Of a stretch of 64,000 bases of DNA, positions 1,040 through 15,289 are shown piece by piece. The notes below the pieces were generated by a model that saw only the letters and a program-made list of their open reading frames with translations, ran no database searches and was not told the origin of the DNA. The number at the start of each line of letters is the position of its first letter. Positions within the stretch are counted from its first letter, which is position 1. The translations under genes were made by a program, and so were the position numbers. The DNA is taken from NCBI GenBank assembly GCA_038321865.1, contig JBBQFH010000007.1:1-64000 (forward strand). Direction: 5' to 3'. This DNA is from Gemmatimonadales bacterium (GTDB taxonomy: Bacteria; Gemmatimonadota; Gemmatimonadetes; Gemmatimonadales; GWC2-71-9).

Positions 1040-1645
1040 CTAGACGGCCGGATGGTTGTGCGCGAGTCGAAGGAATTCATCGCGCGTCTTGGGATCGTCC
1101 CGGAAGGCGCCGCGGAGTGCGCTGGTCACGGTGCGCGAATTCTGCTTTTCGACCCCGCGCATCATCATGCAGAAGTGGGCGGCTTCGATGACGACCCCGA
1201 CACCCCGCGGGCGAAGCACGCTGGTGAGCGCGTCCGCGATCTGGTCGGTGAGCCGTTCCTGCACCTGCAGGCGGCGGGCAAACACATCCACTACCCGAGC
1301 CAGTTTGGAGAGGCCCACGATCCGCCCGTCGGGAATGTAGGCCACGTGGGCCCGGCCAAAGAACGGCAGCATGTGATGCTCGCACAGGGAGTACAGCTCG
1401 ATGTCCCGCACCAGGATCATGCCGTCGTGCGCCTCCTCGAATACGGCGTCGCCCACGGCACCCTCGACCGAGAGGTCGTAACCCTGGGTCAGCCAGCGCA
1501 GCGAGGCCTCGACGCGCTCCGGCGTTTTCCGAAGCCCATCACGATCGGGATCCTCTCCCAGCGCCGTCAGCACGTGGCGAATCTCGGCCGTGAACCCCGC
1601 CGGCGCCGGACCGGACGATGCGCTGCTATCCCTGGTATTCGACAT
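1040..1645 (-). CDS. folE: GTP cyclohydrolase I
   Basis: Motifs [28 protein letters not shown] and HFCMMMRGV. Start trimmed to ATG 1645, overlapping the PTPS gene end. Confidence 0.95.
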
Positions 1646-2036
1646 AGTTCCTCGGTGTTTCCCACAGCCGGAGGCGGAGCGACAGGCCCGCGGGCAGCGC
1701 GGGGGTGAGCTCCCGCCAGCAGACAAGGGCAATGTTCTCCGCCGTCGGTATCAGGTCGCGGAACCACCCGACGTCGGTGTTGAGGTTCTTGTGGTCCAGC
1801 CGCCGGAGCAACACCTCTTCCACCAGTTGCTTGAGGACGTGCAGATCCATGACGTATCCCGTCTCAGGGTCGATCTCCCCCTCGACCGTCACATCCAGAT
1901 CGTAGTTGTGTCCGTGAAAGTTGGGGTTGTTGCAGACGCCGAACGTGGTCTGGTTCCAGTCGGCAGGTCGGCTCGGGTTGTGCAGACGGTGCGCGGCGTT
2001 GAAGTGCACGCGCCGCGTCACGGCGCATCGGGGCAT
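1626..2036 (-). CDS. 6-pyruvoyl-tetrahydropterin synthase / QueD family (CX5HGH, PTPS-II-type motif)
   Basis: [32 protein letters not shown] and LWETPRN motifs. Start ATG 2036. Confidence 0.92.
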
Positions 2037-2089
2037 GCGGCAGTCCGTTGAACGGGTATGGAAAGATGCGCGGGGGCCGGCGGGAACGC

Positions 2090-2115
2090 AAAAACGCCGG
2101 CCCGAGGGGCCGGCG
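2090..2115 (-). terminator. Intrinsic terminator ending the ncRNA
   Basis: Minus strand CGCCGGCCC-CTC-GGGCCGGCG followed by TTTTT. Confidence 0.8.
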
Positions 2116-2276
2116 GAAGCGGAGCGACAACGAAGAGGATTATTGAAGCCCAATGAGAAAGCTTGGCACCCTCACCATAACGTCTGTCTTCCCCCGAGGG
2201 GCATGGCATCGGCTACAGCATGTGGGCCCACACTGGACCTGTTGGCTCAATAATGTGTCTCCGCGCTGCCGTCCGC
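2090..2276 (-). ncRNA. Structured non-coding RNA, probably 6S RNA (alternative: unknown leader RNA of the PTPS-folE operon)
   Basis: Bounded by a promoter and a terminator, ~187 nt. Long 5'/3' pairing: GCGGA/TCCGC, CGGCAGCG/CGTTGTCG, ATTATTGAGCCAA/TTGGGCTTCAATAAT. A ~11/10-nt bubble follows, then an inner stem TGGGCCC/GGGTGCCA. Confidence 0.6.
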
Positions 2277-2532: not shown

Positions 2533-3492
2533 CTAGATCTCCCAGTTCGACATCACGATCCCCGCGCGCGGACGGGCTTCGGCATAGCCATGCAGCGTCA
2601 TGCGCAGGTCGGTCCAGTGGACCCGGAATCCGGCGCGGACCAGCCACAGGTAGGCATCACCGAAGGCCGACTGGCACCTGATGGAGGTGCGCCGGACTCG
2701 CTCGACTTCGGCCGCCGCCTGCACCGCCTCCACGACCAGCCCGAAGGCCTCGACGTCCTCGGCGGCGATCTTCAGCAGGCGAACCTCGTCGCGCGGGCGG
2801 CCGGCGGCCAGCGCGGCCGAATGCCACAGGGCGAAGGCGGCGAGCCGGCCGCCGCGGCGCACCAGCGTGGTGTCACCGAGCGCGAGCTCGTGGGTCAGCG
2901 CCAGCTCGCGCGTGAAATCGACGCCCGGCTGCAGCCGGTCGGCGAGCGCACGACACTCCGCCAGCCGAGCGTCGTAGGTCGCCGGATCGTCTCCCAGGCG
3001 TTCGGGCACCTGGCCGATGCGGCGGCCCGCATCGCGCACCAGCGTCACGGTCAGGTGCCCGGGCTGCAGGCCGAGCCGGCTGTAGAATCCGATGTTGTCC
3101 ACCGTCCGCGGCATCGTTTCCAGTCCGATGGTCGTTGCGCCCTCCGACTTGAGCCATTCGATGCCGCTCTGCACCATCGTCGAGCCCAGCCCTTCTCCCT
3201 GGCGATCCGGGCACACGGCCAGCGGCCCCATCCAGCCTTCCGAGCCTGACCGGTGCACCATGTTGAAACCGGCGATCTGCCCCTCGCCGTCGCGCCACAG
3301 CATGGCGCCGTCGCCGGCATCCTCGATCGCATACCGCCAGACCAGCGGATTGAGGTGCGGCACCCGAACCCCCACCAGCCCGTCCCTCGTGTAGCGATCG
3401 GTAAAGGATTCCGAGAACACGCGGTTGAGCGCCTCCACGTCCCGCACCGTGGCCCGGTCGGGACCACGGATCGCCCGGTCAGGCCGCCACAT
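2533..3492 (-). CDS. GNAT-family N-acetyltransferase (tandem GNAT domains)
   Basis: Acetyl-CoA motif LAVCPDRQGEGLG and NIGFYSRLG; second degenerate domain ending YLWLVRAGFR. Overlaps the sbcC stop by 14 nt. Confidence 0.85.
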   Translation of the reverse strand: MWRPDRAIRGPDRATVRDVEALNRVFSESFTDRYTRDGLVGVRVPHLNPLVWRYAIEDAGDGAMLWRDGEGQIAGFNMVHRSGSEGWMGPLAVCPDRQGEGLGSTMVQSGIEWLKSEGATTIGLETMPRTVDNIGFYSRLGLQPGHLTVTLVRDAGRRIGQVPERLGDDPATYDARLAECRALADRLQPGVDFTRELALTHELALGDTTLVRRGGRLAAFALWHSAALAAGRPRDEVRLLKIAAEDVEAFGLVVEAVQAAAEVERVRRTSIRCQSAFGDAYLWLVRAGFRVHWTDLRMTLHGYAEARPRAGIVMSNWEI

Positions 3493-5899
3493 CGTGCCCG
3501 CCCGCGGACTCGTCGCGCACCAGGGACGTGCCGCGCGCGACGTCGTAGCCGACGCGGATCACCCGATCGAAGCCGTCGCGAACGGCGTCGATGTGCGTGA
3601 TGAGGATGACCTGCGGAAAACGATCGGCGAGGCTCCGGAGCAGGTCGAGCACGGAAGCGCGACGCTCTTCGTCGAGCGACCCGAAGATTTCGTCGAGGAT
3701 CAGGAGCGACAGGGGCTGGCCCGCGCGGTCCGCGATCATCTGACTGATCGCCAGGCGGAGCGCGAGGTTAGCCACGTCCTCTTCGCCCCCCGAGATGACG
3801 GTCTTGGGCTCGCCGTCGTCCATCAGCGTGGCCATATAACTCTCGTCCAGCTCGAGGTCGGTGTAGCGGCCATTGGTCAGGTCACGGAGGAAGGACGAGG
3901 CCAGCTCACCCAGCTCGGGACGCAGCGACTGGTTCAGGTCGGTGCGCAGGTCGGTCAGGGCGCGGTCGAGTTCCTGGTGCATGATCAGATCCGCGGCGAC
4001 GGCCGCGGCTTCGCGCGCGCGGGCGGCCGCCTCGGTACGGCGGCGGCTTGCCGCCGCCAGCGCCTCCGTCGCCGAGCTCACATCACCGCGCGCCCGGACC
4101 GCCGCGAGCTCGGCGTCGCGGCGGGCCCGGTCCGCCTTCGCCTCGGCCTCGCGCAGCGCCGTGAACGTGGTTTCGGCGTAATCCAGCGCGGCGATGCGGC
4201 CAACCAGTCCGGCAAGCCGCTCTTCGCACCCGCCGCACTCGCCGGCGGCCTGCCGCGCCTCGGCATCCAGCGCCTCCGCGCGCTGAGCCAGGCCCTCCAG
4301 CCGCGACACGGAAAGCGCAATCGGCTCGAGCAGCCTGATCTGGGCGCGAATGCGTTCGTGCGCCGCCGGATCGTACGACGCCGCGGACGCGCCCGCCGCG
4401 ATCTCCAGCTCTCCCGCGCGGCGCCGCAACTTGGTGCCTTCCTCCTCAAGCGCACGCCGTTCGGCGGCCTGCGCCTCGAGCCGCGCCTGTTCGCCGACCG
4501 CATCGGTCAGCTGGCGGTCAAGCCGGGTCCGCTCGTCCTCCAGCGTCACCAGGTCGGCCGGCTCATGCTCCAGCTGCTCGACGCGTTGGCGGAAATAGTG
4601 CCCGTTGTCCGTCACTTCCTGGAGCTGCCGGTCGAGCAGGCCGAGGACGCGGTCGAATTCGTCGAGCAGCGGTCGGGCGCAGGTGGGACAGACGCCGGCA
4701 TCTCCCGCGAGGACGATGCGCTCCCGCTGATCCTTGAGCTCCTGATACTGATCGCGGAGTGATCGCAGCTGCGTGTCCGCGTCCTGCCGGTCGCGCACCC
4801 AGGCAGTGCGGCGTTCTTCCACCCGCAACGCCGATACCGCCGATGACGCTCGGAGTTCGTTGACCCGGGCCTGCGCGTCGAGCACGGCAGCCGTCGTCGG
4901 GAGGCCGGACACGCGCCGGTCGATCACGGGCACCCGGGCTCGAACCTCTGCCAGCTGGGCGACCGCGCCCCGATGCGCCGAGTACGCCTCGGCGATGGAT
5001 TCATACCGCGCCGCGTCCTCCCGCAACGCGGCCAGCGGTGCCAGCTGGCGGCGGCCGGCTTCGAGTCCGGCCCGCGCCTCGGCCGCCTCGGCCGCCTGGC
5101 GCGCGAGCCCCTCGCCCTTCTCGCGCGCCGCCCGCAGCTGCGCCTCGGCCACGCGCCGCTCGGCATCGAGCGCCAGCGCGGTGTCGCGCGCCCGCTGTAT
5201 CGCGTCCCAGCGCGGTCGAAGCTCGGCGAGCGCCTGCTCGGCGCGCTCGAAACCTCCGGCGCCGGCCGCCAGCGCCGCTTCCGCGCCGGCCAGCCGCTCG
5301 CGGGCGCGCAGTTCTTCGGCGTCGAGCGCGCCCGCATCGGGCAGGCCGCTCTGCAGCGCGTCGAGGCGGGCCTTGCGCGCGGTGCGACGCTCCTTGAGCC
5401 GGTCCTGCGCCGTGCGAATCCGCTCGTAGCCGAGGACACGTGACAGGAACTGGGCGCGATCGGATGGGGACATCGCGGCCATGACCGCGAGTTCCTTTTG
5501 TCCCGTAAAATACGTATTGAAGAATTCGTCCCGCGTCATGCCCAGCAGTCGGGTCACCCGCTCCGTCACCGCTCCCAGGCTGTTGGCGATCGGGGCGGGC
5601 TCCCCGTCCTGGTACAGTTCCGCGGTGCTCAGCCCGCGGGTGACCCGATACTGGTGGGCGCCGAGCGTAAACTCGAGCTCGACCTCGACCCGCGCGCGGG
5701 GGGGGGCGCCGCGACGCCGGATGCTGTCCTTGCTGCCCCGCGCCGCCTGCGTCCCGTACATGGCCCAGGCGATCGCCTCGAGAAGGGTCGTCTTGCCCGC
5801 GCCGTTGGGCCCGACGATTCCGGTCAACCCCGCGCCCAGCACGAGCTCGGTGTCCTCGTGCTGGCGGAAGTTCACGAGATGCAGACGATTGATGAACAT
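3479..5899 (-). CDS. sbcC: Rad50/SbcC SMC-family ATPase
   Basis: Walker A GPNGAGKTT, long coiled coil, central zinc hook CPTC, signature ISGGEE, Walker B/D-loop LILDEIFGSLD, H-loop ITH. Confidence 0.93.
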   Translation of the reverse strand: MFINRLHLVNFRQHEDTELVLGAGLTGIVGPNGAGKTTLLEAIAWAMYGTQAARGSKDSIRRRGAPPRARVEVELEFTLGAHQYRVTRGLSTAELYQDGEPAPIANSLGAVTERVTRLLGMTRDEFFNTYFTGQKELAVMAAMSPSDRAQFLSRVLGYERIRTAQDRLKERRTARKARLDALQSGLPDAGALDAEELRARERLAGAEAALAAGAGGFERAEQALAELRPRWDAIQRARDTALALDAERRVAEAQLRAAREKGEGLARQAAEAAEARAGLEAGRRQLAPLAALREDAARYESIAEAYSAHRGAVAQLAEVRARVPVIDRRVSGLPTTAAVLDAQARVNELRASSAVSALRVEERRTAWVRDRQDADTQLRSLRDQYQELKDQRERIVLAGDAGVCPTCARPLLDEFDRVLGLLDRQLQEVTDNGHYFRQRVEQLEHEPADLVTLEDERTRLDRQLTDAVGEQARLEAQAAERRALEEEGTKLRRRAGELEIAAGASAASYDPAAHERIRAQIRLLEPIALSVSRLEGLAQRAEALDAEARQAAGECGGCEERLAGLVGRIAALDYAETTFTALREAEAKADRARRDAELAAVRARGDVSSATEALAAASRRRTEAAARAREAAAVAADLIMHQELDRALTDLRTDLNQSLRPELGELASSFLRDLTNGRYTDLELDESYMATLMDDGEPKTVISGGEEDVANLALRLAISQMIADRAGQPLSLLILDEIFGSLDEERRASVLDLLRSLADRFPQVILITHIDAVRDGFDRVIRVGYDVARGTSLVRDESAGGHDVAA

Positions 5900-7074
5900 C
5901 AGCCGGACAGATCGCGCTCGACCGTGTCCACCAGCTCGGTGCCGAGCGCGACGAAGCGGGCACGATCTACCTCCGCCGGAAGCGGCCGGCGCTGTAGATA
6001 GTCCGCCACGAGCTCCGGCAGCGTCTGCCGGTGCCCCGGCGCGCCGACGCCCACGCTGTTGCGGGCCTCGGGCCGGCGAACATCAAGATGAAAGTGCAGC
6101 GCCTCGGCCTTGAGGGCGCGAAGCGCCGTGTGATCGAGCCCCCGGGCGACGTGGCGCGGCACGTCGTGCACCACCAGCCGGACGACCTGGTCGGCAATGC
6201 CGCCGCGCACCGCGCGCACGCGCTCCAGGACGGTCGCGTCGATCTCCTCCGCCGTCAGGCCGGCTCCTTGAATCGCAGGGAGATCGAGAATCCGGCGGCT
6301 CGCCGCGACCGGCTGCGGCTCGACGGCACCCGTATCCAGATCCACGAGCAGCCAGCCCTTTCCCTCGACGCCGCGGTCCGCCTCGTCGCGCAGCTCGCCC
6401 CAGAGATTGGAGCTGACGTAGTCCAGCGCGCCGGCATACCAGGCGCGTGGTCCGATCTGATGCCGCACGTGATAGTGACCGAAGGCGACGTAGCTCCACT
6501 CGCCGCTTGCTATGTCGGCCTCGCTCAGCACCGCACCGCCGTATTCGACCGAGCTGCGGTCGGCCGGGAACACCCCCTCCATCTCGCCGTGGATCACGAG
6601 GACGTGCCGGGCTTCCGGGCCGTCGGGGCGGAGCGCGGGCCGCTCGCCGCCGATGAGCGCCTGATGGGGAACCGCGAAGACGCTCAACCCGAGTTCGGGG
6701 TAGGTGAAGCGGCGCGCCTCGTCCGCGGCGACGTCGATCCCGATGTCGGTGAATAATCGGAGAATGGTCCCCGTTTCGGCCGACCGGGGCGTATCATGGT
6801 TCCCGGCGATCAGCACGACCGGTACCTCCGGCAGCGCCTCGCGCAGGCGTTGCAGCTGGCGGAACGCGAACACGATCGCGGCATTGGTGGGACGCACGGA
6901 GTGGAAGAGATCACCGGCCACGACCACGATATCGGGCCGGGCGGCGATCACGCCGTCGATGGCGGCACGGAACGCCGCCGCCACATCCGCCTCGCGCTGA
7001 TTGATGCCGGCGGACGTCTGGCGGTGGTACAGCCGAATGCCGAGATGCGGGTCGGCGATATGCGCGAGCTTCAC
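5899..7074 (-). CDS. sbcD: Mre11/SbcD metallophosphoesterase nuclease
   Basis: Motifs DPHLG, AGDLFH, IAGNHD, IHG and FGHYH. Stop overlaps the sbcC ATG (TGATG). Confidence 0.93.
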   Translation of the reverse strand: MKLAHIADPHLGIRLYHRQTSAGINQREADVAAAFRAAIDGVIAARPDIVVVAGDLFHSVRPTNAAIVFAFRQLQRLREALPEVPVVLIAGNHDTPRSAETGTILRLFTDIGIDVAADEARRFTYPELGLSVFAVPHQALIGGERPALRPDGPEARHVLVIHGEMEGVFPADRSSVEYGGAVLSEADIASGEWSYVAFGHYHVRHQIGPRAWYAGALDYVSSNLWGELRDEADRGVEGKGWLLVDLDTGAVEPQPVAASRRILDLPAIQGAGLTAEEIDATVLERVRAVRGGIADQVVRLVVHDVPRHVARGLDHTALRALKAEALHFHLDVRRPEARNSVGVGAPGHRQTLPELVADYLQRRPLPAEVDRARFVALGTELVDTVERDLSG

Positions 7075-7080
7075 GGCAGG

Positions 7081-7109
7081 AGAATGGTGCTAACGCGCCC
7101 GAAGAGCAA
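7081..7109 (-). promoter_or_regulatory. Candidate leaderless sigma70 promoter of sbcD
   Basis: TTGCTC-17-CATTCT, 6 nt before the GTG start, with no SD. Confidence 0.5.
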
Positions 7110-7129
7110 GACTTACGATGTGTCGCACC

Positions 7130-7158
7130 TTGCCTTCGCCTGACGCGGCGGCTAGCGT
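7130..7158 (+). promoter_or_regulatory. Candidate leaderless sigma70 promoter of the ClC gene
   Basis: TTGCCT-17-TAGCGT, 7 nt before ATG 7166, with no SD. Confidence 0.5.
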
Positions 7159-7165
7159 GCGTTGC

Positions 7166-9019
7166 ATGGACCTTCTCCCTGATCCCGTGACGGCCGGCAT
7201 CGCGTGGCAGCCGCAGGAGCACCACGACAGACTGCTCCGCATCAGCGCCCTCTCCATCGCGATCGCCTTTGCCGCCGCCGCCGCCGCCGAGCTCCTCGTT
7301 GCGCTGATCAATGGCGTCACCAACGTCGCGTTCTTCGGCCGCTTCTCGCTCACCTTCACGCCGCCGTGGGCCAACCACCTGGGATGGTGGGTCATACTCG
7401 TCCCGGTCGCCGGCGCCCTGATCGTGGGCGTCATGGCACGCTACGGCTCGGCCGCGATCCGCGGACACGGCATTCCGGAGGCGATGGAGCGCGTCCTCTA
7501 CAACGAGAGCCGGATCCGGCCCAGGGTGACGATCCTGAAGCCGCTTTCCTCCGCGATCGCGATCGGGACCGGCGGCCCCTTCGGTGCCGAAGGGCCCATT
7601 ATCGCGACCGGCGGGGCACTCGGCTCGCTGGTGGGCCAGCTCCTGCACACGACGGCGGACGAACGGAAGACGCTGCTCGCCGCCGGAGCGGCAGCCGGCA
7701 TGGCTGCCATCTTCGGCACGCCGGTCGCCGCGGTCCTGCTCGCCATCGAGTTGCTGCTCTTCGAATACCGTCCCAGGTCACTCGTTCCCGTCGCCCTCGC
7801 GGCGGCCGCGGCGACGGCGGTGCGTCTGACGATGCACGGGTCCGACCCGGTGTTCGCGCTCTCCGGAATCGCCCAGCCAGGGGGCGCGGCGCTGGCCACC
7901 TACCTGCTGCTGGGTGCGGCCATGGGTCTGGCCGCCGTGTACGTCACGCGCGGACTCTACGCCATCGAGGATGCCTTCGAGCATCTGCCGGTCCATTGGA
8001 TGTGGTGGCCTGCGATCGGCGCCGTGGCGGTCGGCATCATCGGCTTCGGCGCACCCCGCACGCTCGGAGTCGGCTACGACAACATCGCCGCCATTCTCTC
8101 GGGCAGCATGGTGGGTACCACGCTCCTCGTGCTGGTGCTGCTGAAGCTGGTCTCCTGGTCCATCGCGCTCGGCAGCGGGACATCGGGCGGCACCCTCGCC
8201 CCGCTATTCACGATCGGCGGCGGATTGGGCGCCCTGGCCGGCGAGATGCTGCAACGGGCCGTCCCGACACTCGGGGTGGACCCCCGCGTGGCGGCCCTCG
8301 TCGGCATGGCCGCGATGTTTACCGGGGCCTCACGCGCGCTGCTGACCTCGATCGTCTTTGCCTTCGAAGCTACCCGCCAGCCAATGGGCCTCCTTCCGCT
8401 GCTGGCCGGCTGCACCGCTGCGTACCTGGTATCGCTGCTGCGCATGAAGCAGACGATCATGACGGAACGCCTCGCGCGGCGCGGCGCGCCGGTCCGGACG
8501 GAATACACGGTCGACTTTCTCCAGCAGATTCTGGTGCGCGACTGCGCCACGCCCGAAGCGACCGTCATACGAGCGGCGGACCGGGTATCCGATGTCCGTG
8601 GCTGGTTCGCATCCGGGGCGCCGGGATCGACGCACCAGGGATTCCCGGTCGTGAATGGCTCCAGTCACCTCGTTGGCGTCCTCACCCGGCGTGACATCGA
8701 GAACGCAGCGGCGGATCCGTCACAATCGGTGCAATCGCTGATTCACCGGCCGCCGGCGATCATCTACGATGACAACACCGCACGAGAAGCCGCCGATCAC
8801 ATGGTTCACGAGCACATCGGACGGCTGCCTGTGGTGTCCCGCGCGAACCCGCGGACCGTGGTCGGGATCATCACCCGGAGCGATCTGCTCGAAGCCCACG
8901 AGCGGCGGCTGCTGGCGCAGTCGAGAGCCGAACGCAGCCTCGATCTCCTGCCGGGGCGCTGGGCCGGGCGCCGGCAGCAGCCTGCCCGCACGCCTCACGA
9001 CGAGCGTCAGGGTCCGTAG
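7166..9019 (+). CDS. ClC-family chloride channel/transporter with C-terminal CBS pair
   Basis: GHGIPE, GAEGP and GGTLAP motifs, many TM helices, CBS motifs HQGFPVV and IGRLPVV. Confidence 0.92.
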   Translation: MDLLPDPVTAGIAWQPQEHHDRLLRISALSIAIAFAAAAAAELLVALINGVTNVAFFGRFSLTFTPPWANHLGWWVILVPVAGALIVGVMARYGSAAIRGHGIPEAMERVLYNESRIRPRVTILKPLSSAIAIGTGGPFGAEGPIIATGGALGSLVGQLLHTTADERKTLLAAGAAAGMAAIFGTPVAAVLLAIELLLFEYRPRSLVPVALAAAAATAVRLTMHGSDPVFALSGIAQPGGAALATYLLLGAAMGLAAVYVTRGLYAIEDAFEHLPVHWMWWPAIGAVAVGIIGFGAPRTLGVGYDNIAAILSGSMVGTTLLVLVLLKLVSWSIALGSGTSGGTLAPLFTIGGGLGALAGEMLQRAVPTLGVDPRVAALVGMAAMFTGASRALLTSIVFAFEATRQPMGLLPLLAGCTAAYLVSLLRMKQTIMTERLARRGAPVRTEYTVDFLQQILVRDCATPEATVIRAADRVSDVRGWFASGAPGSTHQGFPVVNGSSHLVGVLTRRDIENAAADPSQSVQSLIHRPPAIIYDDNTAREAADHMVHEHIGRLPVVSRANPRTVVGIITRSDLLEAHERRLLAQSRAERSLDLLPGRWAGRRQQPARTPHDERQGP

Positions 9020-10965
9020 GGATCATCCGGCGTGGGACGGCGCAGCGTCGGCACCGCACGGCGGGGGGCGGCGGGCTCGGCCGTCACGCGCCGGCCCAGC
9101 GCGGCGACGAAATAGGCAGCCGGATCGTCCGGCCGGGCCCGTCGGGTGGCGGCCAGCGCGCGGCGGACGTCGAGCTCGCGTCGGCCGTCGACCGCCGCCC
9201 GGATCGCGTCGGCCGAGATGCTGCGGTCGAGCCCCCGAAGCTGGCGGGCGACCGCATCGGCGAACGGCAGATCGTGCGCGGGGGGAAATCGTTCGACGCC
9301 TTCGCGACCGGTCATCACCGCCGGCTTCGGAAAGCGCACGAAGATCGGCTGCGTGAAATGCGGGTGACGAAGCATCAGCTCACCTTTGGGCAGGGTGCCC
9401 AGCTTGATCTTCGTGGCAGGCGAGAGGGTCGCGTACCCCGGCGTCGCGAGCTCGTCCATATCCATCCGGCCGTAGACGCTCGTCCCGGCATTCCCCACCA
9501 CGCGTCGCTGCACCTGCGAGCGAAACTGCTGCGCCGAGAACAGCACCAGGCCGAGATAGCGGCCGCGTTCCGAGAGGTCGAGCAGCATCTTCCGCACGTA
9601 GGTATCGGGGCCCTCCGCCGGGGCGTACTTGTTCAGCTCGTCCACGAACACCACCACATGATCGACGCCGAGGTCGCGGCGCTCGAGGTGCTCGCGCAGC
9701 TTCGATACGACGCGCGCGAACACCAGGTCCTGCGCCAGCGGGTCGAGCCCGGCGACGTCGATCACCTGGACGCTCCGGTCGGTGAACCGTCCCCAGGGCA
9801 GGTCGTTGGCCACTCCATCGTCGGTCACCAGCCCCTTGGACCGCGTGGAGATGTTGCTCAGCCGGTTGCGAACCTTCCGGATCGTGGCCACGTGATGCGT
9901 CTTCCACACCTCCCCGCCCTTCCCCAGCGCCTCCATGAAATCGAAGATCGCGCGGAAGAACTCCTCGAGATCGGCGAAGCTCTGCACGCAGAACGGTTTT
10001 CCGCGCAGCAGATCATCGTGATATTCATGGCCGACAATCCGCTCCGCCAGAAAATCGATGAAGGCGTCGGCCTTGGCGTCGACGTCGTCCCGGTTCATGA
10101 CGACTTCGGCGAAGTCGAGCACTTCGCGCAGCCCCCACACGAGCGGCTCGGTGTTGGACGACAGCGCCTCATGGGTGCGCAGGGTGTTGAGGTTCACTCC
10201 GTCCGGCTTGTGCGGCGCGAAGTAGCGTACGGCTGCGAACGGCTCCGGCGAGAGTCCCATCCGCGCGTAGAGCGCGCGATCGGCGTCGCCGATGCTGCCG
10301 GGCTGATCGAGGAAGCAGAGATCCGGGCCCTTGACGTTGAAGCAGACGGCCGCCACCGAACCCTTGTGGGCCGGAAACGTCTGAAAGATGCTCGAGAGCA
10401 GGAACTCGACGGCACTCGTCTTGGTCGCCAGCCCGGATACGCCCGAGATGTTGAGATGGGCCGCTTCGGGGCCCAGCAGGAAGTCGCAGTCGAGGTAGAC
10501 GGGCGATTCGTGCCCTCCGGCGGCGTAGACGCCGACCGGAATGCCGGTGGCGCGCTCGCCGACGGTGTAGCCGTCCATCCGAAGCGCAAGCACGACATCA
10601 TCGTCGGAGGCCAGCCGCACGGCGCCGAGCGGCACCGGCTGCAGCGGCTCCTCGGGGATCTGCCGCAGCACGGAAGCCAGATACAGCCGGATCTCCGCGC
10701 GTGCGCTCGGCTCCAGCCCGACGGCGGCCGGGTCACCATCGGCTCCGAGCACCGCATGCATCGGCGTCACAAGATCGGAGTAGGCGGCCGCATCGGTCAC
10801 CACGGCGAACACGATGCGCCCGGGCGCGTCCACCCGGATGATGGCGCCGATACCGACGGCTGATTCCCGGGCGGTCCAGAAGTAGAACTGGTGCGGCGTC
10901 GACGGCTTCAGCTCGGTCGCGACGACGCGACCGACCGGTGTTGCGGAAGTCATGATGTCTGGCAT
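9007..10965 (-). CDS. herA: HerA/FtsK-superfamily ATPase (HerA DNA translocase)
   Basis: N-terminal HAS-barrel-like region, variant Walker A HLNISGVSGLATKT, Walker B VFVDELNKYAP, arginine finger ERGRYLG, sensor SAQQ. Lies directly downstream of the nurA-like gene. Confidence 0.85.
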   Translation of the reverse strand: MPDIMTSATPVGRVVATELKPSTPHQFYFWTARESAVGIGAIIRVDAPGRIVFAVVTDAAAYSDLVTPMHAVLGADGDPAAVGLEPSARAEIRLYLASVLRQIPEEPLQPVPLGAVRLASDDDVVLALRMDGYTVGERATGIPVGVYAAGGHESPVYLDCDFLLGPEAAHLNISGVSGLATKTSAVEFLLSSIFQTFPAHKGSVAAVCFNVKGPDLCFLDQPGSIGDADRALYARMGLSPEPFAAVRYFAPHKPDGVNLNTLRTHEALSSNTEPLVWGLREVLDFAEVVMNRDDVDAKADAFIDFLAERIVGHEYHDDLLRGKPFCVQSFADLEEFFRAIFDFMEALGKGGEVWKTHHVATIRKVRNRLSNISTRSKGLVTDDGVANDLPWGRFTDRSVQVIDVAGLDPLAQDLVFARVVSKLREHLERRDLGVDHVVVFVDELNKYAPAEGPDTYVRKMLLDLSERGRYLGLVLFSAQQFRSQVQRRVVGNAGTSVYGRMDMDELATPGYATLSPATKIKLGTLPKGELMLRHPHFTQPIFVRFPKPAVMTGREGVERFPPAHDLPFADAVARQLRGLDRSISADAIRAAVDGRRELDVRRALAATRRARPDDPAAYFVAALGRRVTAEPAAPRRAVPTLRRPTPDDPYGP

Positions 10966-11018
10966 GGTGGAATGTCGCGGAGGGCCCGCGCCGCCGACAG
11001 GGGCGGCATCGGCGGCCG

Positions 11019-11774
11019 TCAGCTGCCGGCCCTGAGGTATTGTCCGACCGAGTGAATGCCGTAGAGGAGCCGGTCCCAACGGGCGTCGGGTGTGCTGAGC
11101 GGGGCGCGCTCCGCGAGGAGCCAGCGGGAAAGATCGTCTGCGACTTCGGGCGTACCGTTGGCGGGTGCCACTTCGACGCGGATCAGCCCGTGGAAGACGT
11201 CACGGTCCTGCCACGGCCAGAGTCGCAGCGCCCAGGCCCGGACTGGCGCGACGCGCCGTGAGCGCGGGGCGAAGATCGATGTCCGGTGGCCGAACGGCAG
11301 GCGCAGATACCGCTCGAGCTCTTCCCCGCTGAACGGCAGCGTGGCGTGACTCTTCACGACGCCCACAGCCCGCGCATCGTCTGCCCACGCCGGACTCTCG
11401 CTCAGCGTGCCGTCCACCACCAGCCAGGCCCCGGACGATGTCCGGTACCGGAGCCCCACCGCAACTTCGAGCGCCCCGCGCGCCCGATCGATCGCCCGGC
11501 CGGCGGTGCGGAGGTCCCGCGCGGGATGCGACGCCTCGGCATCGGCGATCACGACCCGGTCGAAGCCGTCGAACACGTCTCCCGCGGCATTGAGCGCGTC
11601 CTGCCGGGCGACCACGAGCGAACGCCGTTCGGTGACGACCGTCCGGAAAACTCGGCCGGTTCGCTCCCGAACCGCGGCCGCGATGTGCGCCAGGATGATC
11701 GGCGCAACCCCGGCGTACCCGACGATCTCCGCCCGCTGGGTCCCGTCAAGGAAGGCGACGGTCTCCGGCCACAC
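11019..11774 (-). CDS. nurA: NurA-like RNase H-fold nuclease (true start probably upstream, ~11942-11953)
   Basis: Acidic motifs AFLDG and LVVDGTL, plus VGVVKS. Adjacent to herA. The frame stays open upstream to 11957. Confidence 0.75.
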   Translation of the reverse strand: MWPETVAFLDGTQRAEIVGYAGVAPIILAHIAAAVRERTGRVFRTVVTERRSLVVARQDALNAAGDVFDGFDRVVIADAEASHPARDLRTAGRAIDRARGALEVAVGLRYRTSSGAWLVVDGTLSESPAWADDARAVGVVKSHATLPFSGEELERYLRLPFGHRTSIFAPRSRRVAPVRAWALRLWPWQDRDVFHGLIRVEVAPANGTPEVADDLSRWLLAERAPLSTPDARWDRLLYGIHSVGQYLRAGS

Positions 11775-11957
11775 TTCGGCGGGGCCGACCGCGCGGGTTT
11801 CGAGCGATGAGTGCTCGATCAGCTCGGCTGGCTGAATCGCGGCGTCCTCCGCCCGCCCCCTGCTCCACTCCGCCGGCGCTGCCGCACTGAGCAGGCCCTT
11901 CTCGCGAAGCTCTCGGCGGACGCGATCCGCGTGCGGGATCAGGATGACGTCACGCGG

Positions 11958-12467
11958 CTATTCGTCCTCGAACGCCGGGAACGGCGGCACGCCAGCAAGC
12001 CAGAATCCCGCGACACTTCCTTCCCGGTCCACTTCGATGAAAAAATGATCGGCGACCCGGACCACCTCGACCGAGCGGATAGGGCCGATCCGCAGATGGA
12101 ACACGCTCTGGGCCTCGTCGGTCCGCACCGAGAGCGAGGTGTCGACCTCCATCGAAGTGATCCCCGGGCGGGACGGGCGCTTTGCCGTGACGACCCGGCC
12201 TTCGGTGAGCTGGGCCGGGACCTGCAACCCGGGGGTGCCGGCCACTTCGGGCCAGACGACGATGTCGATGCCGCAGATGACGCCGTCCGTCACATCCAGC
12301 ACCGCTACCGACCCCACGTCATCCGTCAGCTCGACACTGCCCGTGAGACCCCCGATCTTCCGGCTGGCCTTGAAGGCGCCGGAGAGAATGTCGGTTTCAG
12401 GGTCCCAGCGCCATGCCACGGACGGCAGCTTGCCCGACAGCGGTTCGATGTGCGCCGCGAGCGTCAT
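11958..12467 (-). CDS. Hypothetical protein with two DUF2283-like repeats
   Basis: Clean ORF with ATGA overlap to the aminotransferase. Repeats WRWDPETDILSG...VLDVTDGVICGIDI and VRTDEAQSVFHLRI...FIEVDREGSVAGFWL. Confidence 0.7.
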   Translation of the reverse strand: MTLAAHIEPLSGKLPSVAWRWDPETDILSGAFKASRKIGGLTGSVELTDDVGSVAVLDVTDGVICGIDIVVWPEVAGTPGLQVPAQLTEGRVVTAKRPSRPGITSMEVDTSLSVRTDEAQSVFHLRIGPIRSVEVVRVADHFFIEVDREGSVAGFWLAGVPPFPAFEDE

Positions 12468-13690
12468 GAGGCGGTGCCGCTGCTCGACACGGGCGAGGCG
12501 AGACGATCGATCAGGCGGAGCACCCGGTCGAGCGCGGTCGAGAGCTCCCGATCGGACACGGAATAGCTCAGCCGGACCCAGCGGTCGTCGCCGAACGCGC
12601 CGCCCGGCACCAGGGCAACGCCCTCCTCCGCCATCAGCCGATCGCAGAAGGCAGACCCCGTCAGCGGCTCGCCCTCCCGGATCCCGTCCACCCGGAAAAA
12701 GAAGTAAAACGCGCCGTGCGGCTCGATAAATTCGATGCCGGGAGCCTCGGTGCGAAAGCGATCGACGAGGTAATCGCGCCGCTGGCGGAATGCCGCGACC
12801 ATGCGCTGCACGTCCTGCTCGACCTTCTCATCGGTGAAGGCCGCCGCCGCCGCCCACTGGGCCGGATGATTGGCGCCGGTCGTCGTGTGCGTCTGCAGCG
12901 CGGCCATCGCCTTGAAGAGGTGTACCGGGGCGTACGACGCGCCGATTCGCCAGCCGGTCATCGCGTAGGCCTTGCTCGCGCCGGCGATGATGACGGTCCG
13001 CTCCAGCAGCTCGTCGGGCAGGTCGAGCAGTGACGGCGCCGGCGCCGGTCCGTAGTTGATGCGCCGGTAGATTTCGTCGGAGATGATCCACACGTCGTGC
13101 GTCCTGGCCCACTCGGCGATCCCCTTGAGCTCGGCCAGCGTGTACACGGCTCCCGTGGGATTGCACGGTGAGCAGAGAATCAGCCCCTTTACGTTCTTGG
13201 AATAGGCGCGGTCGAGGTCACGCACGCTGACCTTGAGGCCCCACTCGACGTCGCCGGGCACGAGCACCGGTTCGGCGCGGGAGAGGTGGACGATCTGCGG
13301 ATAGGATACCCACGCGGGCGACGGAATCAGCACCCGGTCGTGCGGTCCGAACAGCGTAAAGCAGGTGTTGAACAACGACTGCTTCGAGCCCGAGCTCACC
13401 AGGATGCGCTCCCAGTCCACCGGACGGCCGCCCGAAAGCTGGGATAGCTTCGCCGCAATGGCGCGGCGCAGCTCCGGGATGCCCGCATTGGGAGGGTAGC
13501 GCGTCATGCCCCGCTGAATGGCACTGATCCCCGCCTGCGCCGCCGGCGCGGGCGTATCGAAGTCCGGCTCGCCGACACTCAGATCATAGACGTCCTCACC
13601 CAGGGCACGGCGCCGCCTGGTCTCGTTGCTGATCGCGAGTGTCTCGGAAGGCTTGAGCTGCTGGACGTTGAGGGACAGCGGGTCGGGCAT
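12464..13690 (-). CDS. PLP-dependent aminotransferase class I/II (aspartate aminotransferase-like)
   Basis: LSVGEPDF, SPCNPTG, ISDEIY and SKAYAMTGWRIG motifs. Start ATG 13690. Confidence 0.93.
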   Translation of the reverse strand: MPDPLSLNVQQLKPSETLAISNETRRRRALGEDVYDLSVGEPDFDTPAPAAQAGISAIQRGMTRYPPNAGIPELRRAIAAKLSQLSGGRPVDWERILVSSGSKQSLFNTCFTLFGPHDRVLIPSPAWVSYPQIVHLSRAEPVLVPGDVEWGLKVSVRDLDRAYSKNVKGLILCSPCNPTGAVYTLAELKGIAEWARTHDVWIISDEIYRRINYGPAPAPSLLDLPDELLERTVIIAGASKAYAMTGWRIGASYAPVHLFKAMAALQTHTTTGANHPAQWAAAAAFTDEKVEQDVQRMVAAFRQRRDYLVDRFRTEAPGIEFIEPHGAFYFFFRVDGIREGEPLTGSAFCDRLMAEEGVALVPGGAFGDDRWVRLSYSVSDRELSTALDRVLRLIDRLASPVSSSGTAS

Positions 13691-13819: not shown

Positions 13820-15289
13820 GTGCCGGGATTCGAGGAACTGCATGTGACGGCCGCGGCCGCGGCTGCACTCCATGCGCTGGGATGGACCACGGAGGATGCC
13901 GCGGCGCGCGAAGCGGCTCCTACGGCGGCGCGCGGCCACAACCTGGTCGTTGTCGCCCCGCCGGCTCCGGCGTACGCCGCCCCCGCCCTGGCTGGTCTGC
14001 TCGGCCGGCTTGGCGGCGACGGTGGCGTGCAGGGTCTCCTCCTCGCGCCCGCGGCGGAGCTCGATGAATGGGGCGCGATCGCGAACGCACTGGGTCGTGA
14101 CCTGCCGGCCCGGGTGCAGGTGGCGCATGGCGAGTCCCGCGCACTGCGGCGCCTCCGCGCCCGGGAGCTGGACCTGCTGATCACAACGCCGGAAATCGCG
14201 CTCGCCCTGGTGCGCCGTTCCGCGCTCAAGATGGAGGCCATGGGCGTCGTCTGCCTGGCCTGGCCCGAGAGCCTCGGGGCGGACGAGGCCCTGACGCCGC
14301 TGATGCACGACCTGCCGAAGGAAGCCCAGCGCATCATCTTCACGGCCGCCGCCGACCGCCTGGCCGATCTGGTGGAACGGTATGCCCGGAAGGCCATGAC
14401 GGTCGGCGCCGCTCCGGCCGAGTCCACGCCGCTTCCACCGGCCGGCCCGGTCCGGACCGTCGCGGTACCGTGGCAGCGGCGGGCCGCGGCGCTGTCGGAG
14501 GTCGTCGAGCTGCTCGATCCGGCGTCACTCGTCGTCTGGGCGGCCGACCTGAGCCACGAGGCCGCGATCGCCGCCGCCGTCCCGCTGGGCGATGCCGCCG
14601 TCACGCTCACCACCGATGACGCACCGAAGGCGTCGCTGATCATCGCGTTCGATCCCCCGTCTCCGGAACGCCTGCGCCAGCTGCTCGGCGCGGGCGACGT
14701 GGTCCTGCTGGTGCCGCCGACCGCAGATGCCTACGTCACCCGCATCGCGACGCCACGGCGGCCGATTCGCCTGTCCGGCCTGCTGGAGGCGGTGACCCAT
14801 GAGGCCGGCGCCCACCGCGCGGCGATCGCCCGCGCGATCGAGGAGAATCGCCCCGAGCGCGCATTGCTGACATTGGCGCCCCTCTTCGAGCGCTACGATC
14901 CCTCGGCCGTCGCGGCGGCGCTCTATGATTTGTGGGTCGCGAAAAGCGGTGCGGGCGTGCCCGGCGCGGTGCCGGACGTCCCCGCGACCAGCAAGATGTT
15001 AGTGGGGGTGGGGATGATGTACAAGTCGAAGGCCAAAGATCTCGTCGCGATCCTGACCAAGGAGCTGCGGCTGGACAAGGCGAAGATCGGGCGCATCGAG
15101 CTCAAGGACAGCTTCCTGCTCGTGGACGTGCCGGCGCAGGACGCGGAGCGGATCGCGGCGGGGCTGAACGGAGCGATGATCAGGCGGAAACGCGTCACAG
15201 CGCGGGTCGACCGCGGCGCGGCTCGACCGGCTGGACGCGGGGCGCCGGCACGGGGGGGTCCCCGCGGCGCGCCCCGGGCGCGCGACTAG
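13820..15289 (+). CDS. Degenerate DEAD-box-helicase-like protein with C-terminal DbpA RNA-binding domain
   Basis: DEAD-box scaffold ([23 protein letters not shown]) but Walker A and DEAD are absent. C-terminal [17 protein letters not shown] and an Arg/Gly tail. Confidence 0.75.

What the first reader, a model, noticed from the sequence alone, without database searches (positions are those of the whole stretch)
2533..13690. Archaeal-style NurA-HerA-Mre11-Rad50 end-resection cluster in a bacterium, with extra coupled genes
Seen: co-oriented aminotransferase, DUF2283-like gene, nurA, herA, then sbcD/mre11, sbcC/rad50 and GNAT. Several junctions have overlapping start/stop codons, and only one inverted ClC gene interrupts the run. 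Established: herA-mre11-rad50-nurA is the archaeal double-strand-break resection operon, while studied bacterial NurA-HerA (e.g. Deinococcus) is usually treated separately from SbcCD. Inference: this lineage may use a complete four-component resection machine instead of or alongside RecBCD/AddAB, with two uncharacterised accessory proteins. Best candidate for an undescribed system in this window.
Basis: partly seen in the sequence, partly recalled or inferred. Interest (0 to 1): 0.8.

Follow-up and report, generated by a model that had tools for sequence, protein, structure and literature searches.

The report
Bacterial NurA-HerA-SbcDC cluster with dispensable NurA
This Gemmatimonadales bacterium carries nurA, herA, sbcD (mre11) and sbcC (rad50) side by side, and the usual break-trimming enzyme AddAB/RecBCD was not found in its 90%-complete genome; the layout has a published bacterial precedent, and because relatives repeatedly lose nurA or nurA-herA while keeping sbcD-sbcC, it is likely two neighbouring DNA-end modules, not one obligatory four-part machine.

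Summary
The cluster is real. The NurA call, which no Pfam or NCBIfam model supports, is confirmed by fold and profile, and NurA-HerA is of the bacterial (Deinococcus) type, not the archaeal type. All four genes lie within 20 kb in 58 of 63 nurA loci read from relatives. A bacterial nurA-herA-sbcD-sbcC cluster is published (Oceanithermus, PMC5448004), and this scan reported it at least seven times on other DNA.

Survey of 194 genomes in two Gemmatimonadales families: AddAB found in 34 (96 of 103 genomes outside the order), RecJ in 191, HerA in 177, NurA in 157. Of these, 21 keep HerA without NurA and 16 lack both. Where NurA is lost, HerA's NurA-binding loop erodes (8 independent pairs, p about 0.03) while its ATPase core stays intact. 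Junctions show three modules: aat-DUF, nurA-herA and sbcD-sbcC-GNAT; the DUF and GNAT genes survive loss of nurA-herA. This window's nurA lacks a standard start codon and a conserved Glu.

Verdict: a known kind of system. 'Obligatory four-part AddAB replacement with two accessory proteins' is not supported. The testable remainder is a NurA-independent role for HerA.

The parts
12464..13690 (-). Class I/II PLP aminotransferase (aspartate aminotransferase-like); neighbour, not part of the repair module
   Evidence: Pfam PF00155 E=7e-70; stays at the locus when nurA-herA are deleted
11958..12467 (-). 169-aa Gemmatimonadota protein with a weak DUF2283 resemblance; coupled to the aminotransferase, not to nurA
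   Evidence: PF10049 E=0.019, below cut-off; ESM Atlas neighbours are Gemmatimonadota clusters, one named DUF2283 (low recognition score); gap >300 bp at aat|DUF in 2 of 48 loci vs DUF|nurA in 32 of 41
11019..11945 (-). Bacterial-type NurA nuclease (RNase H-like fold), about 308 aa. Motifs LDG70-72, VDG181-183, K202 and R293 kept (numbering from the open frame at 11957). No standard start codon at the homologue start (ATC at 11945), and Gly305 where homologues have a conserved Glu
   Evidence: AlphaFold model pLDDT 83.6; Foldseek top hits TM1739 E=2.5e-11, D. radiodurans NurA 3.2e-10, S. solfataricus NurA 6.4e-6; family profile hits drNurA E=8.9e-13; Glu in 109 and Gly in 7 of 120 close homologues
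9007..10965 (-). Deinococcus-type HerA translocase, 652 aa: HAS barrel with intact NurA-binding loop (residues about 59-96), Walker A GVSGLATKT175-183, Walker B DE442-443, ERGR466-469
   Evidence: phmmer to drHerA 7f6d E=4e-46; motifs; loop intact
7118..9019 (+). ClC chloride channel/antiporter with CBS domains, inserted antisense between herA and sbcD; passenger
   Evidence: PF00654 E=5e-81, PF00571; at this junction in only 7 of 107 other loci
5899..7074 (-). SbcD/Mre11 metallophosphoesterase nuclease, 391 aa; motifs DPH8, GDLFH54, GNHD91, H162, GHYH199 intact
   Evidence: PF00149; best PDB hits are archaeal Mre11, E=3e-14; motifs
3479..5899 (-). SbcC/Rad50 ABC ATPase, 806 aa; Walker A, Q-loop, zinc hook CPTC404, signature, Walker B, D-loop and H-loop intact
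   Evidence: PF13476, PF13558; PDB Rad50 E=8e-30 vs E. coli SbcC 1e-8; hook in 75 of 75 relatives
2533..3492 (-). 319-aa GNAT acetyltransferase overlapping the sbcC stop; tightly coupled to sbcC across Gemmatimonadales; substrate not identified
   Evidence: PF00583 E=8e-12; gap >300 bp at sbcC|GNAT in 3 of 96 loci; kept where nurA-herA are deleted; no match at E<=1e-10 in 5 of 5 genomes outside the order

Best explanation
The region holds a bacterial-type NurA-HerA pair next to an SbcD-SbcC (Mre11-Rad50) pair with a coupled GNAT gene, and the two pairs likely act as separable DNA-end-processing modules that back up a RecJ-RecQ/RecFOR pathway in a lineage where AddAB is mostly not found. Shown here: gene identities, intact ATPase and nuclease motifs of HerA, SbcD and SbcC, the modular junctions, the gene-loss pattern and the recombination inventory. 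Inferred from characterised relatives: SbcD-SbcC would bind and clear blocked or hairpin ends. A HerA hexamer would thread duplex DNA and, where NurA is present, feed it to a NurA dimer docked on the acidic HAS-barrel loop, degrading mainly the 5' strand. RecJ with RecQ would do the routine resection for RecFOR-RecA loading. Inferred from this survey: HerA has a NurA-independent job as a motor, since its ATPase core stays conserved after NurA and its docking loop are gone. In this genome NurA is possibly weakly expressed or impaired. The aminotransferase, DUF2283-like and ClC genes are passengers.
For: Junction gaps >300 bp over 107 loci: sbcD|sbcC 0 of 102, sbcC|GNAT 3 of 96, nurA|herA 5 of 81, aat|DUF 2 of 48, but herA|sbcD 59 of 94 and DUF|nurA 32 of 41. 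In 194 genomes of families f1+f2: both NurA and HerA 156, HerA only 21, NurA only 1, neither 16 (absences rechecked with a NurA profile, 4 of 4 positive controls found). SbcD is kept in all 17 HerA-less genomes, and 8 HerA-less loci read show aat-(DUF)-sbcD-sbcC-GNAT without nurA-herA. RecJ in 191 of 194; this genome has RecJ, two RecQ, RecO and Ku and no AddA, AddB or PF12705 domain. HerA loop 59-96 is 36-37 aa in 95 of 95 parsed NurA+ sequences (6 more not parsed) but altered in length in 14 of 20 parsed NurA-less ones. Leave-one-out conservation is 0.96 vs 0.62 in the loop and 0.95 vs 0.95 in three ATPase/helical regions; 8 independent pairs, about 6 in the same direction and 0 opposite, median p=0.03. 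That loop aligns with drHerA D78/E80/D81 (counted by hand), which are needed for NurA binding (PMC9960219). Precedents: T. thermophilus HB27 has a truncated nurA, yet hepA mutants are UV-sensitive (PMC5448004); DrHerA stimulates RecJ and NurA blocks this (PMC4663267 abstract).
Against: herA has stayed on the same strand upstream of sbcD across two families and in two loci outside the order (L173, L237). An independent HerA subfamily forms the same four-gene set in 4 of 5 loci read from families f6-f8. Such recurrence argues for a shared pathway, not mere adjacency. In Sulfolobus, HerA co-precipitates with Mre11-Rad50 (PMC2288612 abstract). RecJ of this genome has only 14 residues past the TIGR00644 model, so it lacks the Deinococcus C-terminal domain that binds HerA. 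No activity was measured. The genome is 89.85% complete, so addAB could be unassembled.
Confidence: 0.55

Rival explanations
1. One reading: NurA, HerA, SbcD and SbcC form one archaeal-style resection machine that has replaced AddAB as the main double-strand-break pathway in this order.
For: Four genes in order in 58 of 63 nurA loci. AddAB in 34 of 194 genomes of f1+f2 (at most 67 of 194 have any PF12705 match) vs 96 of 103 outside the order, where the orthologous HerA is found in only 2 of 103. An AddB tree of 24 sequences puts the order's copies in two clades of their own, consistent with repeated loss after the cluster was in place (FastTree only). SbcD and SbcC score best to archaeal Mre11/Rad50.
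Against: No compensation inside the order: AddAB in 27 of 156 NurA+HerA+, 6 of 21 HerA-only and 1 of 17 HerA-less genomes. G039, G067 and G216 (99% complete; 5, 1 and 20 contigs) show neither NurA-HerA nor an AddAB pair (other long UvrD-family frames there were not examined). Four-gene clusters in f6-f8 coexist with AddB in 4 of 4 genomes. No SbcD or SbcC-head position erodes in more than 2 of 5 HerA-less lineages, unlike the clear HerA-NurA signal. An antisense ClC gene splits the run in this genome.
Confidence: 0.17
2. The conserved core is a three-part HerA-SbcD-SbcC unit: HerA drives DNA for the SbcDC nuclease (at stalled forks, hairpins or converging replication ends) and NurA is an optional second nuclease.
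For: HerA kept without NurA in 21 genomes vs NurA without HerA in 1. All NurA-less loci read keep herA upstream of sbcD (17 of 17; G089, G134, G078, G238). ATPase core stays conserved. Archaeal HerA-Mre11-Rad50 co-precipitation.
Against: herA|sbcD is the loosest joint in the cluster (59 of 94 with inserts). SbcDC persists without visible change where herA is deleted. In 57 loci of another HerA subfamily from many phyla, 50 have nurA next door, none has an sbcD match, and only one has a weak SbcC-profile hit, about 6 kb upstream (41 have at least 5 kb of downstream flank).
Confidence: 0.17
3. NurA-HerA here serves foreign-DNA handling (degrading phage or plasmid ends, or DNA uptake/donation) and not chromosome repair; it sits beside sbcDC by inherited gene order.
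For: Thermus hepA mutants are defective in competence and DNA donation. T. kodakarensis HerA-NurA cuts both strands, and the authors doubt a simple resection role (PMC12977600 passages). A 2026 review ascribes a defence role to bacterial NurA-HerA (PMC13748450 passage). Frequent loss fits an accessory function.
Against: Fixed chromosomal position among housekeeping genes (tk, HU, aminotransferase, PTPS, folE) across two families; G+C like the rest of the window; no PADLOC match for NurA and only a partial mads_8 match (E=8e-7) for HerA.
Confidence: 0.11

Closest known systems
Deinococcus radiodurans NurA-HerA complex (PDB 7F6D, 7WRW/7WRX; PMC9960219) and Thermotoga maritima TM1739 (PDB 1ZUP)
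   Same: Same HerA subfamily with the GxSGxATKT Walker A (E=4e-46), same NurA fold and K201/R309 equivalents, nurA directly upstream of herA, host with RecJ-RecQ and no RecBCD/AddAB found.
   Different: Here sbcD-sbcC-GNAT follow on the same strand; NurA is shorter (about 308 aa), is repeatedly lost, and in this genome lacks the C-terminal-helix Glu; RecJ lacks the Deinococcus C-terminal HerA-binding domain.
Oceanithermus profundus nurA-hepA(herA)-sbcD-sbcC cluster (Blesa et al. 2017, PMC5448004)
   Same: Bacterial herA followed by sbcD and sbcC; the authors proposed an archaea-like DSB function.
   Different: One genome noted in passing, against an order-wide arrangement here with mapped losses, a coupled GNAT and frequent inserts at herA|sbcD.
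Archaeal herA-mre11-rad50-nurA operon (Sulfolobales, Thermococcales; PMC13748450 section 7, PMC2288612)
   Same: Same four protein families clustered; SbcD and SbcC score best to archaeal Mre11/Rad50.
   Different: HerA and NurA are bacterial-type; the run is often interrupted; nurA and herA are dispensable here, whereas they could not be deleted in T. kodakarensis.
Bacterial SbcCD (E. coli, T. maritima Mre11-Rad50)
   Same: All catalytic motifs, zinc hook, translational coupling.
   Different: Short 806-aa SbcC of the Rad50 type; GNAT overlapping its stop codon; below every NCBIfam SbcC/SbcD/Rad50/Mre11 cut-off.

Membership tests
Bacterial (Deinococcus-type) NurA-HerA | HerA with HAS barrel, RecA-like ATPase, Walker A Lys/Thr, Walker B DE | tested here: met
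   Walker A, Walker B and ERGR motifs in 78 of 78 relatives
Bacterial (Deinococcus-type) NurA-HerA | NurA RNase H-like fold | tested here: met
   Foldseek top four hits are NurA structures; profile hits drNurA and TM1739
Bacterial (Deinococcus-type) NurA-HerA | NurA catalytic residues: two DG motifs, drNurA K201 and R309 equivalents | tested here: met
   D71, D182, K202, R293 present; K201/R309 mapped through the alignment; D71 = drNurA D53 is inferred from motif I, which lies outside the displayed drNurA alignment
Bacterial (Deinococcus-type) NurA-HerA | Conserved Glu in the NurA C-terminal helix (present in drNurA and TM1739) and a standard start codon | tested here: not met
   Gly305 here; Glu in 109 and Gly in 7 of 120 homologues; no in-frame ATG/GTG/TTG at the homologue start. 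A catalytic role for this Glu was not found in the sections read
Bacterial (Deinococcus-type) NurA-HerA | Physical 2:6 NurA-HerA complex through the acidic HAS-barrel loop | tested here: inconclusive
   Indirect only: the loop is intact here and erodes when nurA is lost; no binding assay
SbcCD / Mre11-Rad50 | Five phosphoesterase motifs in SbcD; Walker A/B, Q-loop, signature, D-loop, H-loop and CxxC hook in SbcC; coupled genes | tested here: met
   no gap >300 bp in 102 of 102 loci
Archaeal herA-mre11-rad50-nurA operon | All four genes clustered on one strand | tested here: met
Archaeal herA-mre11-rad50-nurA operon | HerA and NurA of the archaeal sequence/structure type | tested here: not met
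   No archaeal HerA at E<=1; NurA closer to bacterial structures. No tree with archaeal sequences was built
Archaeal herA-mre11-rad50-nurA operon | Uninterrupted co-transcribed operon | tested here: not met
   Antisense 1.9-kb ClC gene between herA and sbcD; inserts in 59 of 94 loci. Gene layout only; transcripts not examined
Archaeal herA-mre11-rad50-nurA operon | Joint retention of all four genes | tested here: not met
   156 both, 21 HerA only, 1 NurA only, 16 neither, of 194
Archaeal herA-mre11-rad50-nurA operon | HerA interacts with Mre11-Rad50 | not testable with these tools
   Needs pull-down or co-precipitation; the sequence proxy found no SbcD/SbcC-head patch eroding in HerA-less lineages
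HerA-based anti-phage systems (PADLOC models) | Match to defence-system models; variable, island-type location | tested here: not met
   (only partial mads_8, E=8e-7); fixed housekeeping neighbourhood
DUF2283 (PF10049) | Pfam gathering score | tested here: not met
   15.6 bits vs 23; ESM Atlas cluster name is a lead only

The most novel reading that the evidence does not exclude
Gemmatimonadales is a large bacterial order that gave up AddAB many times over. Within it, a NurA-free HerA has arisen independently about eight times, shedding its nuclease-docking loop while keeping a conserved motor. That HerA would drive another nuclease, most plausibly the neighbouring SbcD-SbcC, giving a three-part HerA-Mre11-Rad50 end-processing unit not described in the papers searched. 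The GNAT overlapping sbcC could acetylate the complex. This genome would be caught early in the same loss of nurA.
Probability: 0.17. Interest if true: 0.7.

Novelty: new member of a known kind. Interest (0 to 1): 0.4.

Why it matters
The biological role of bacterial NurA-HerA is described as controversial (PMC9960219), and a 2026 review states that bacterial nurA genes lack stable four-gene clustering (PMC13748450). This order contradicts that statement. It also supplies a natural series of states (both genes, HerA only, neither; with or without AddAB) that makes two questions directly testable: what HerA does without NurA, and how an AddAB-less order resects breaks. The loop erosion is independent evolutionary support for the NurA-binding site mapped in Deinococcus. 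The cluster itself is not a new kind of system.

Tried and rejected
Pfam, NCBIfam and PADLOC gave nothing for NurA and nothing useful for HerA. Single-sequence and close-alignment PDB searches missed NurA; a wider profile and the fold found it.

Complex prediction of HerA(1-605) with SbcD: 'no answer', score 0.00; not evidence either way.

Sequencing runs: no RNA holder listed. The one DNA run, probably the source sample and so not independent, matches 10932-13337 with no other letters, so the nurA start and Gly305 are not contradicted there.

Promoter/terminator scan: 1 and 6 sites against 0.9 and 3.7 expected; uninformative.

The AddB profile missed two genomes that have AddA next to a PF12705 gene (G244, G272), so 34 of 194 is a lower bound and 67 of 194 (any PF12705 match) the upper bound.

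Search for a HerA-contact patch on SbcD and the SbcC heads: none found, only 7 sequences in 5 lineages, coiled coils not examined.

Considered and rejected: DUF and GNAT genes as NurA-HerA subunits (they outlast nurA-herA); strict AddAB replacement; recent archaeal transfer of nurA-herA. I first read Gly305 as decay unique to this genome, but it recurs in 6 other close homologues, so it may be a tolerated variant.

Iyer et al. 2004 (PMC521647) and Constantinesco et al. 2004 (PMC390275) were not held. From memory, the former discusses bacterial HerA gene neighbourhoods and may already cover such clusters. Nineteen further regions for a larger held-out check were not obtained; loci already held were used.
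Full report
Observation. The genes, strands and overlaps are as described. Named homologues place the genome in Gemmatimonadales; it is 89.85% complete. An antisense ClC-CBS gene separates herA from sbcD.

Identities. SbcD, SbcC, GNAT, ClC and the aminotransferase hit Pfam. HerA and NurA hit no Pfam or NCBIfam model. HerA matches Deinococcus HerA (E=4e-46) and no archaeal HerA at E<=1. The NurA model matches TM1739, Deinococcus NurA and then Sulfolobus NurA; a 34-sequence profile hits drNurA at 8.9e-13. SbcD and SbcC have all catalytic motifs and a zinc hook and score best to archaeal Mre11/Rad50; no tree with archaeal sequences was built, so their origin is open.

Synteny. I read 80 loci from relatives, picked for long contigs and genus spread, 17 of them because NurA was not found. 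75 have herA-sbcD-sbcC, and 58 of the 63 nurA loci have all four genes in order within 20 kb. The wider order tk/HU/helicase-like/aat/DUF ... GNAT/PTPS/folE is also conserved, so adjacency alone says little. Junction gaps over 107 loci show three tight modules: aat-DUF (inserts in 2 of 48), nurA-herA (5 of 81) and sbcD-sbcC-GNAT (0 of 102; 3 of 96). The joints between modules are loose: DUF|nurA 32 of 41, herA|sbcD 59 of 94.

Distribution. A sample of 300 genomes of the phylum was searched; kin are not independent. In families f1+f2 (194 genomes): HerA 177, NurA 157, RecJ 191, AddB 32 plus two found through AddA, any PF12705 match 67. In the 103 genomes outside the order: AddB 96, PF12705 103, orthologous HerA 2. 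This genome has RecJ, two RecQ, RecO and Ku, one UvrD, and no AddA, AddB or PF12705 domain. An AddB tree suggests two ancestral paralogues, each lost repeatedly (24 rows, FastTree). The swap seen between orders does not hold within the order: AddAB is in 27 of 156 NurA+HerA+, 6 of 21 HerA-only and 1 of 17 HerA-less genomes. Some HerA-less genomes are fragmented, but eight loci read across the site show aat-(DUF)-sbcD-sbcC-GNAT with nurA-herA absent. One genome (G108) keeps a nurA with an altered motif I and no herA.

NurA loss and HerA. A NurA profile found nothing in the 21 HerA-only genomes, with 4 of 4 controls positive. On an SbcD+SbcC-head tree NurA status changes 9 times among HerA+ rows, and several near relatives of this genome are NurA-less. 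The HerA HAS-barrel loop 59-96 aligns with drHerA D78/E80/D81, which are required for NurA binding (PMC9960219 section 'Mapping'). The loop is 36-37 aa in 95 of 95 parsed NurA+ sequences and altered in length in 14 of 20 parsed NurA-less ones. Six NurA+ rows and one NurA-less row were not parsed (the latter visibly shortened), G078 was not recovered, and L241 was classed as NurA-less from its locus alone. Leave-one-out conservation is 0.96 vs 0.62 in the loop and about 0.95 in both groups for the ATPase and helical regions; 8 independent pairs, median p=0.03. Two NurA-less HerAs (G235, L241) keep the loop intact, and one (G238) is split by a frameshift. The reading is that NurA docks on this loop in this lineage and that HerA is kept for something else as well. 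The same test on SbcD and the SbcC heads in HerA-less genomes gave no comparable patch (small sample).

This genome's nurA. D71, D182, K202 and R293 are intact, and the HerA loop is intact. The start codon is non-standard, and a Glu conserved in drNurA, TM1739 and 109 of 120 homologues is Gly. Gly occurs in 6 other homologues, so impairment is possible, not shown.

Elsewhere. A second, more Deinococcus-like HerA subfamily forms herA-sbcD-sbcC-nurA or nurA-herA-sbcD-sbcC in 4 of 5 loci read from families f6-f8, all four with AddB. In 57 GTDB loci of a further subfamily (Bacteroidota, Bacillota, Chloroflexota and others) nurA-herA is a two-gene pair with no sbcD match in the flank. Four-gene clustering is thus recurrent in bacteria but not general.

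Literature, and what I saw of it. PMC5448004 (abstract, passages, section 3.1): Oceanithermus cluster; truncated nurA in HB27; hepA phenotypes. PMC9960219 (passages; Background, Mapping, Key residues, Conclusions). PMC13748450 (passages, Genomic context): says bacterial nurA lacks four-gene clustering. PMC2288612 and PMC4663267 (abstracts). PMC12977600 (passages). Eight searches listed no paper on this cluster or on AddAB loss in Gemmatimonadota; I judged this from titles and abstract starts. Two key 2004 papers were not held, and no supplements were read; the alignments in the supplements of PMC9960219 could bear on the Glu. This scan's earlier reports describe the same cluster in other genomes. 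I reached the same core reading before opening them. Two of them call it phylum-wide, which my sample does not support (orthologous HerA in 2 of 103 genomes outside the order).

Mechanism. Most likely (0.55): separable NurA-HerA and SbcD-SbcC modules assisting RecJ-RecQ/RecFOR repair, with HerA also working without NurA. Rivals: an obligatory four-part AddAB replacement (0.17), a HerA-SbcDC core (0.17), foreign-DNA handling (0.11). All biochemical steps are inferred from relatives.

Verdict. Real and correctly named, but a new member of a known kind. Interest 0.4, for the order-wide scarcity of AddAB and the repeated NurA-free HerA, not for the cluster as such.

Noticed in passing
window 13820-15289 (+): DEAD-box-helicase-like 489-aa protein with a DbpA RNA-binding domain but no GxGKT, DExD/H, SAT or HxxGRxxR motif; kept at this locus in 75 of 107 relatives at about 32% median identity. 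Possibly an inactive helicase homologue.
   Followed up: partly
L081:7176-8123 (oriented) and 22 other f2 loci; a similar one- or two-gene insert in 6 f1 loci: A roughly 280-aa protein with a signal-peptide-like N-terminus sits between herA and sbcD in 23 loci; an earlier scan note names it DUF6263, which I did not test.
   Followed up: partly
L101:3564-3842 (oriented) and 16 other loci; L116:2444-3079 and 8 others: A 92-aa protein resembling an Lrp/AsnC ligand-binding domain (17 loci) and an O-methyltransferase-like protein (9 loci) recur upstream of nurA (names from my reading of the sequence, not from a family search).
   Followed up: no
family f6 genomes, e.g. G196, G058, G082: RecJ found in only 9 of 23 f6 genomes, while many f6 genomes have two AddB copies: the opposite inventory to Gemmatimonadales.
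   Followed up: no
L047 (G217) nurA; L261/L262 (G238) herA; L170 (G091) sbcC: Broken copies in relatives: nurA split by a frameshift in G217, herA split in NurA-less G238, sbcC in two pieces in G091. These could be assembly errors.
   Followed up: partly
window 1040-2153 (-): folE (GTP cyclohydrolase I) and a 6-pyruvoyl-tetrahydropterin synthase follow the GNAT gene in most relatives, always after a gap of more than 300 bp, so the GNAT is coupled to sbcC more tightly than to them.
   Followed up: partly
G000:C6:91035-91574: The genome encodes Ku, so non-homologous end joining may be a further route for break repair; LigD was not searched.
   Followed up: no
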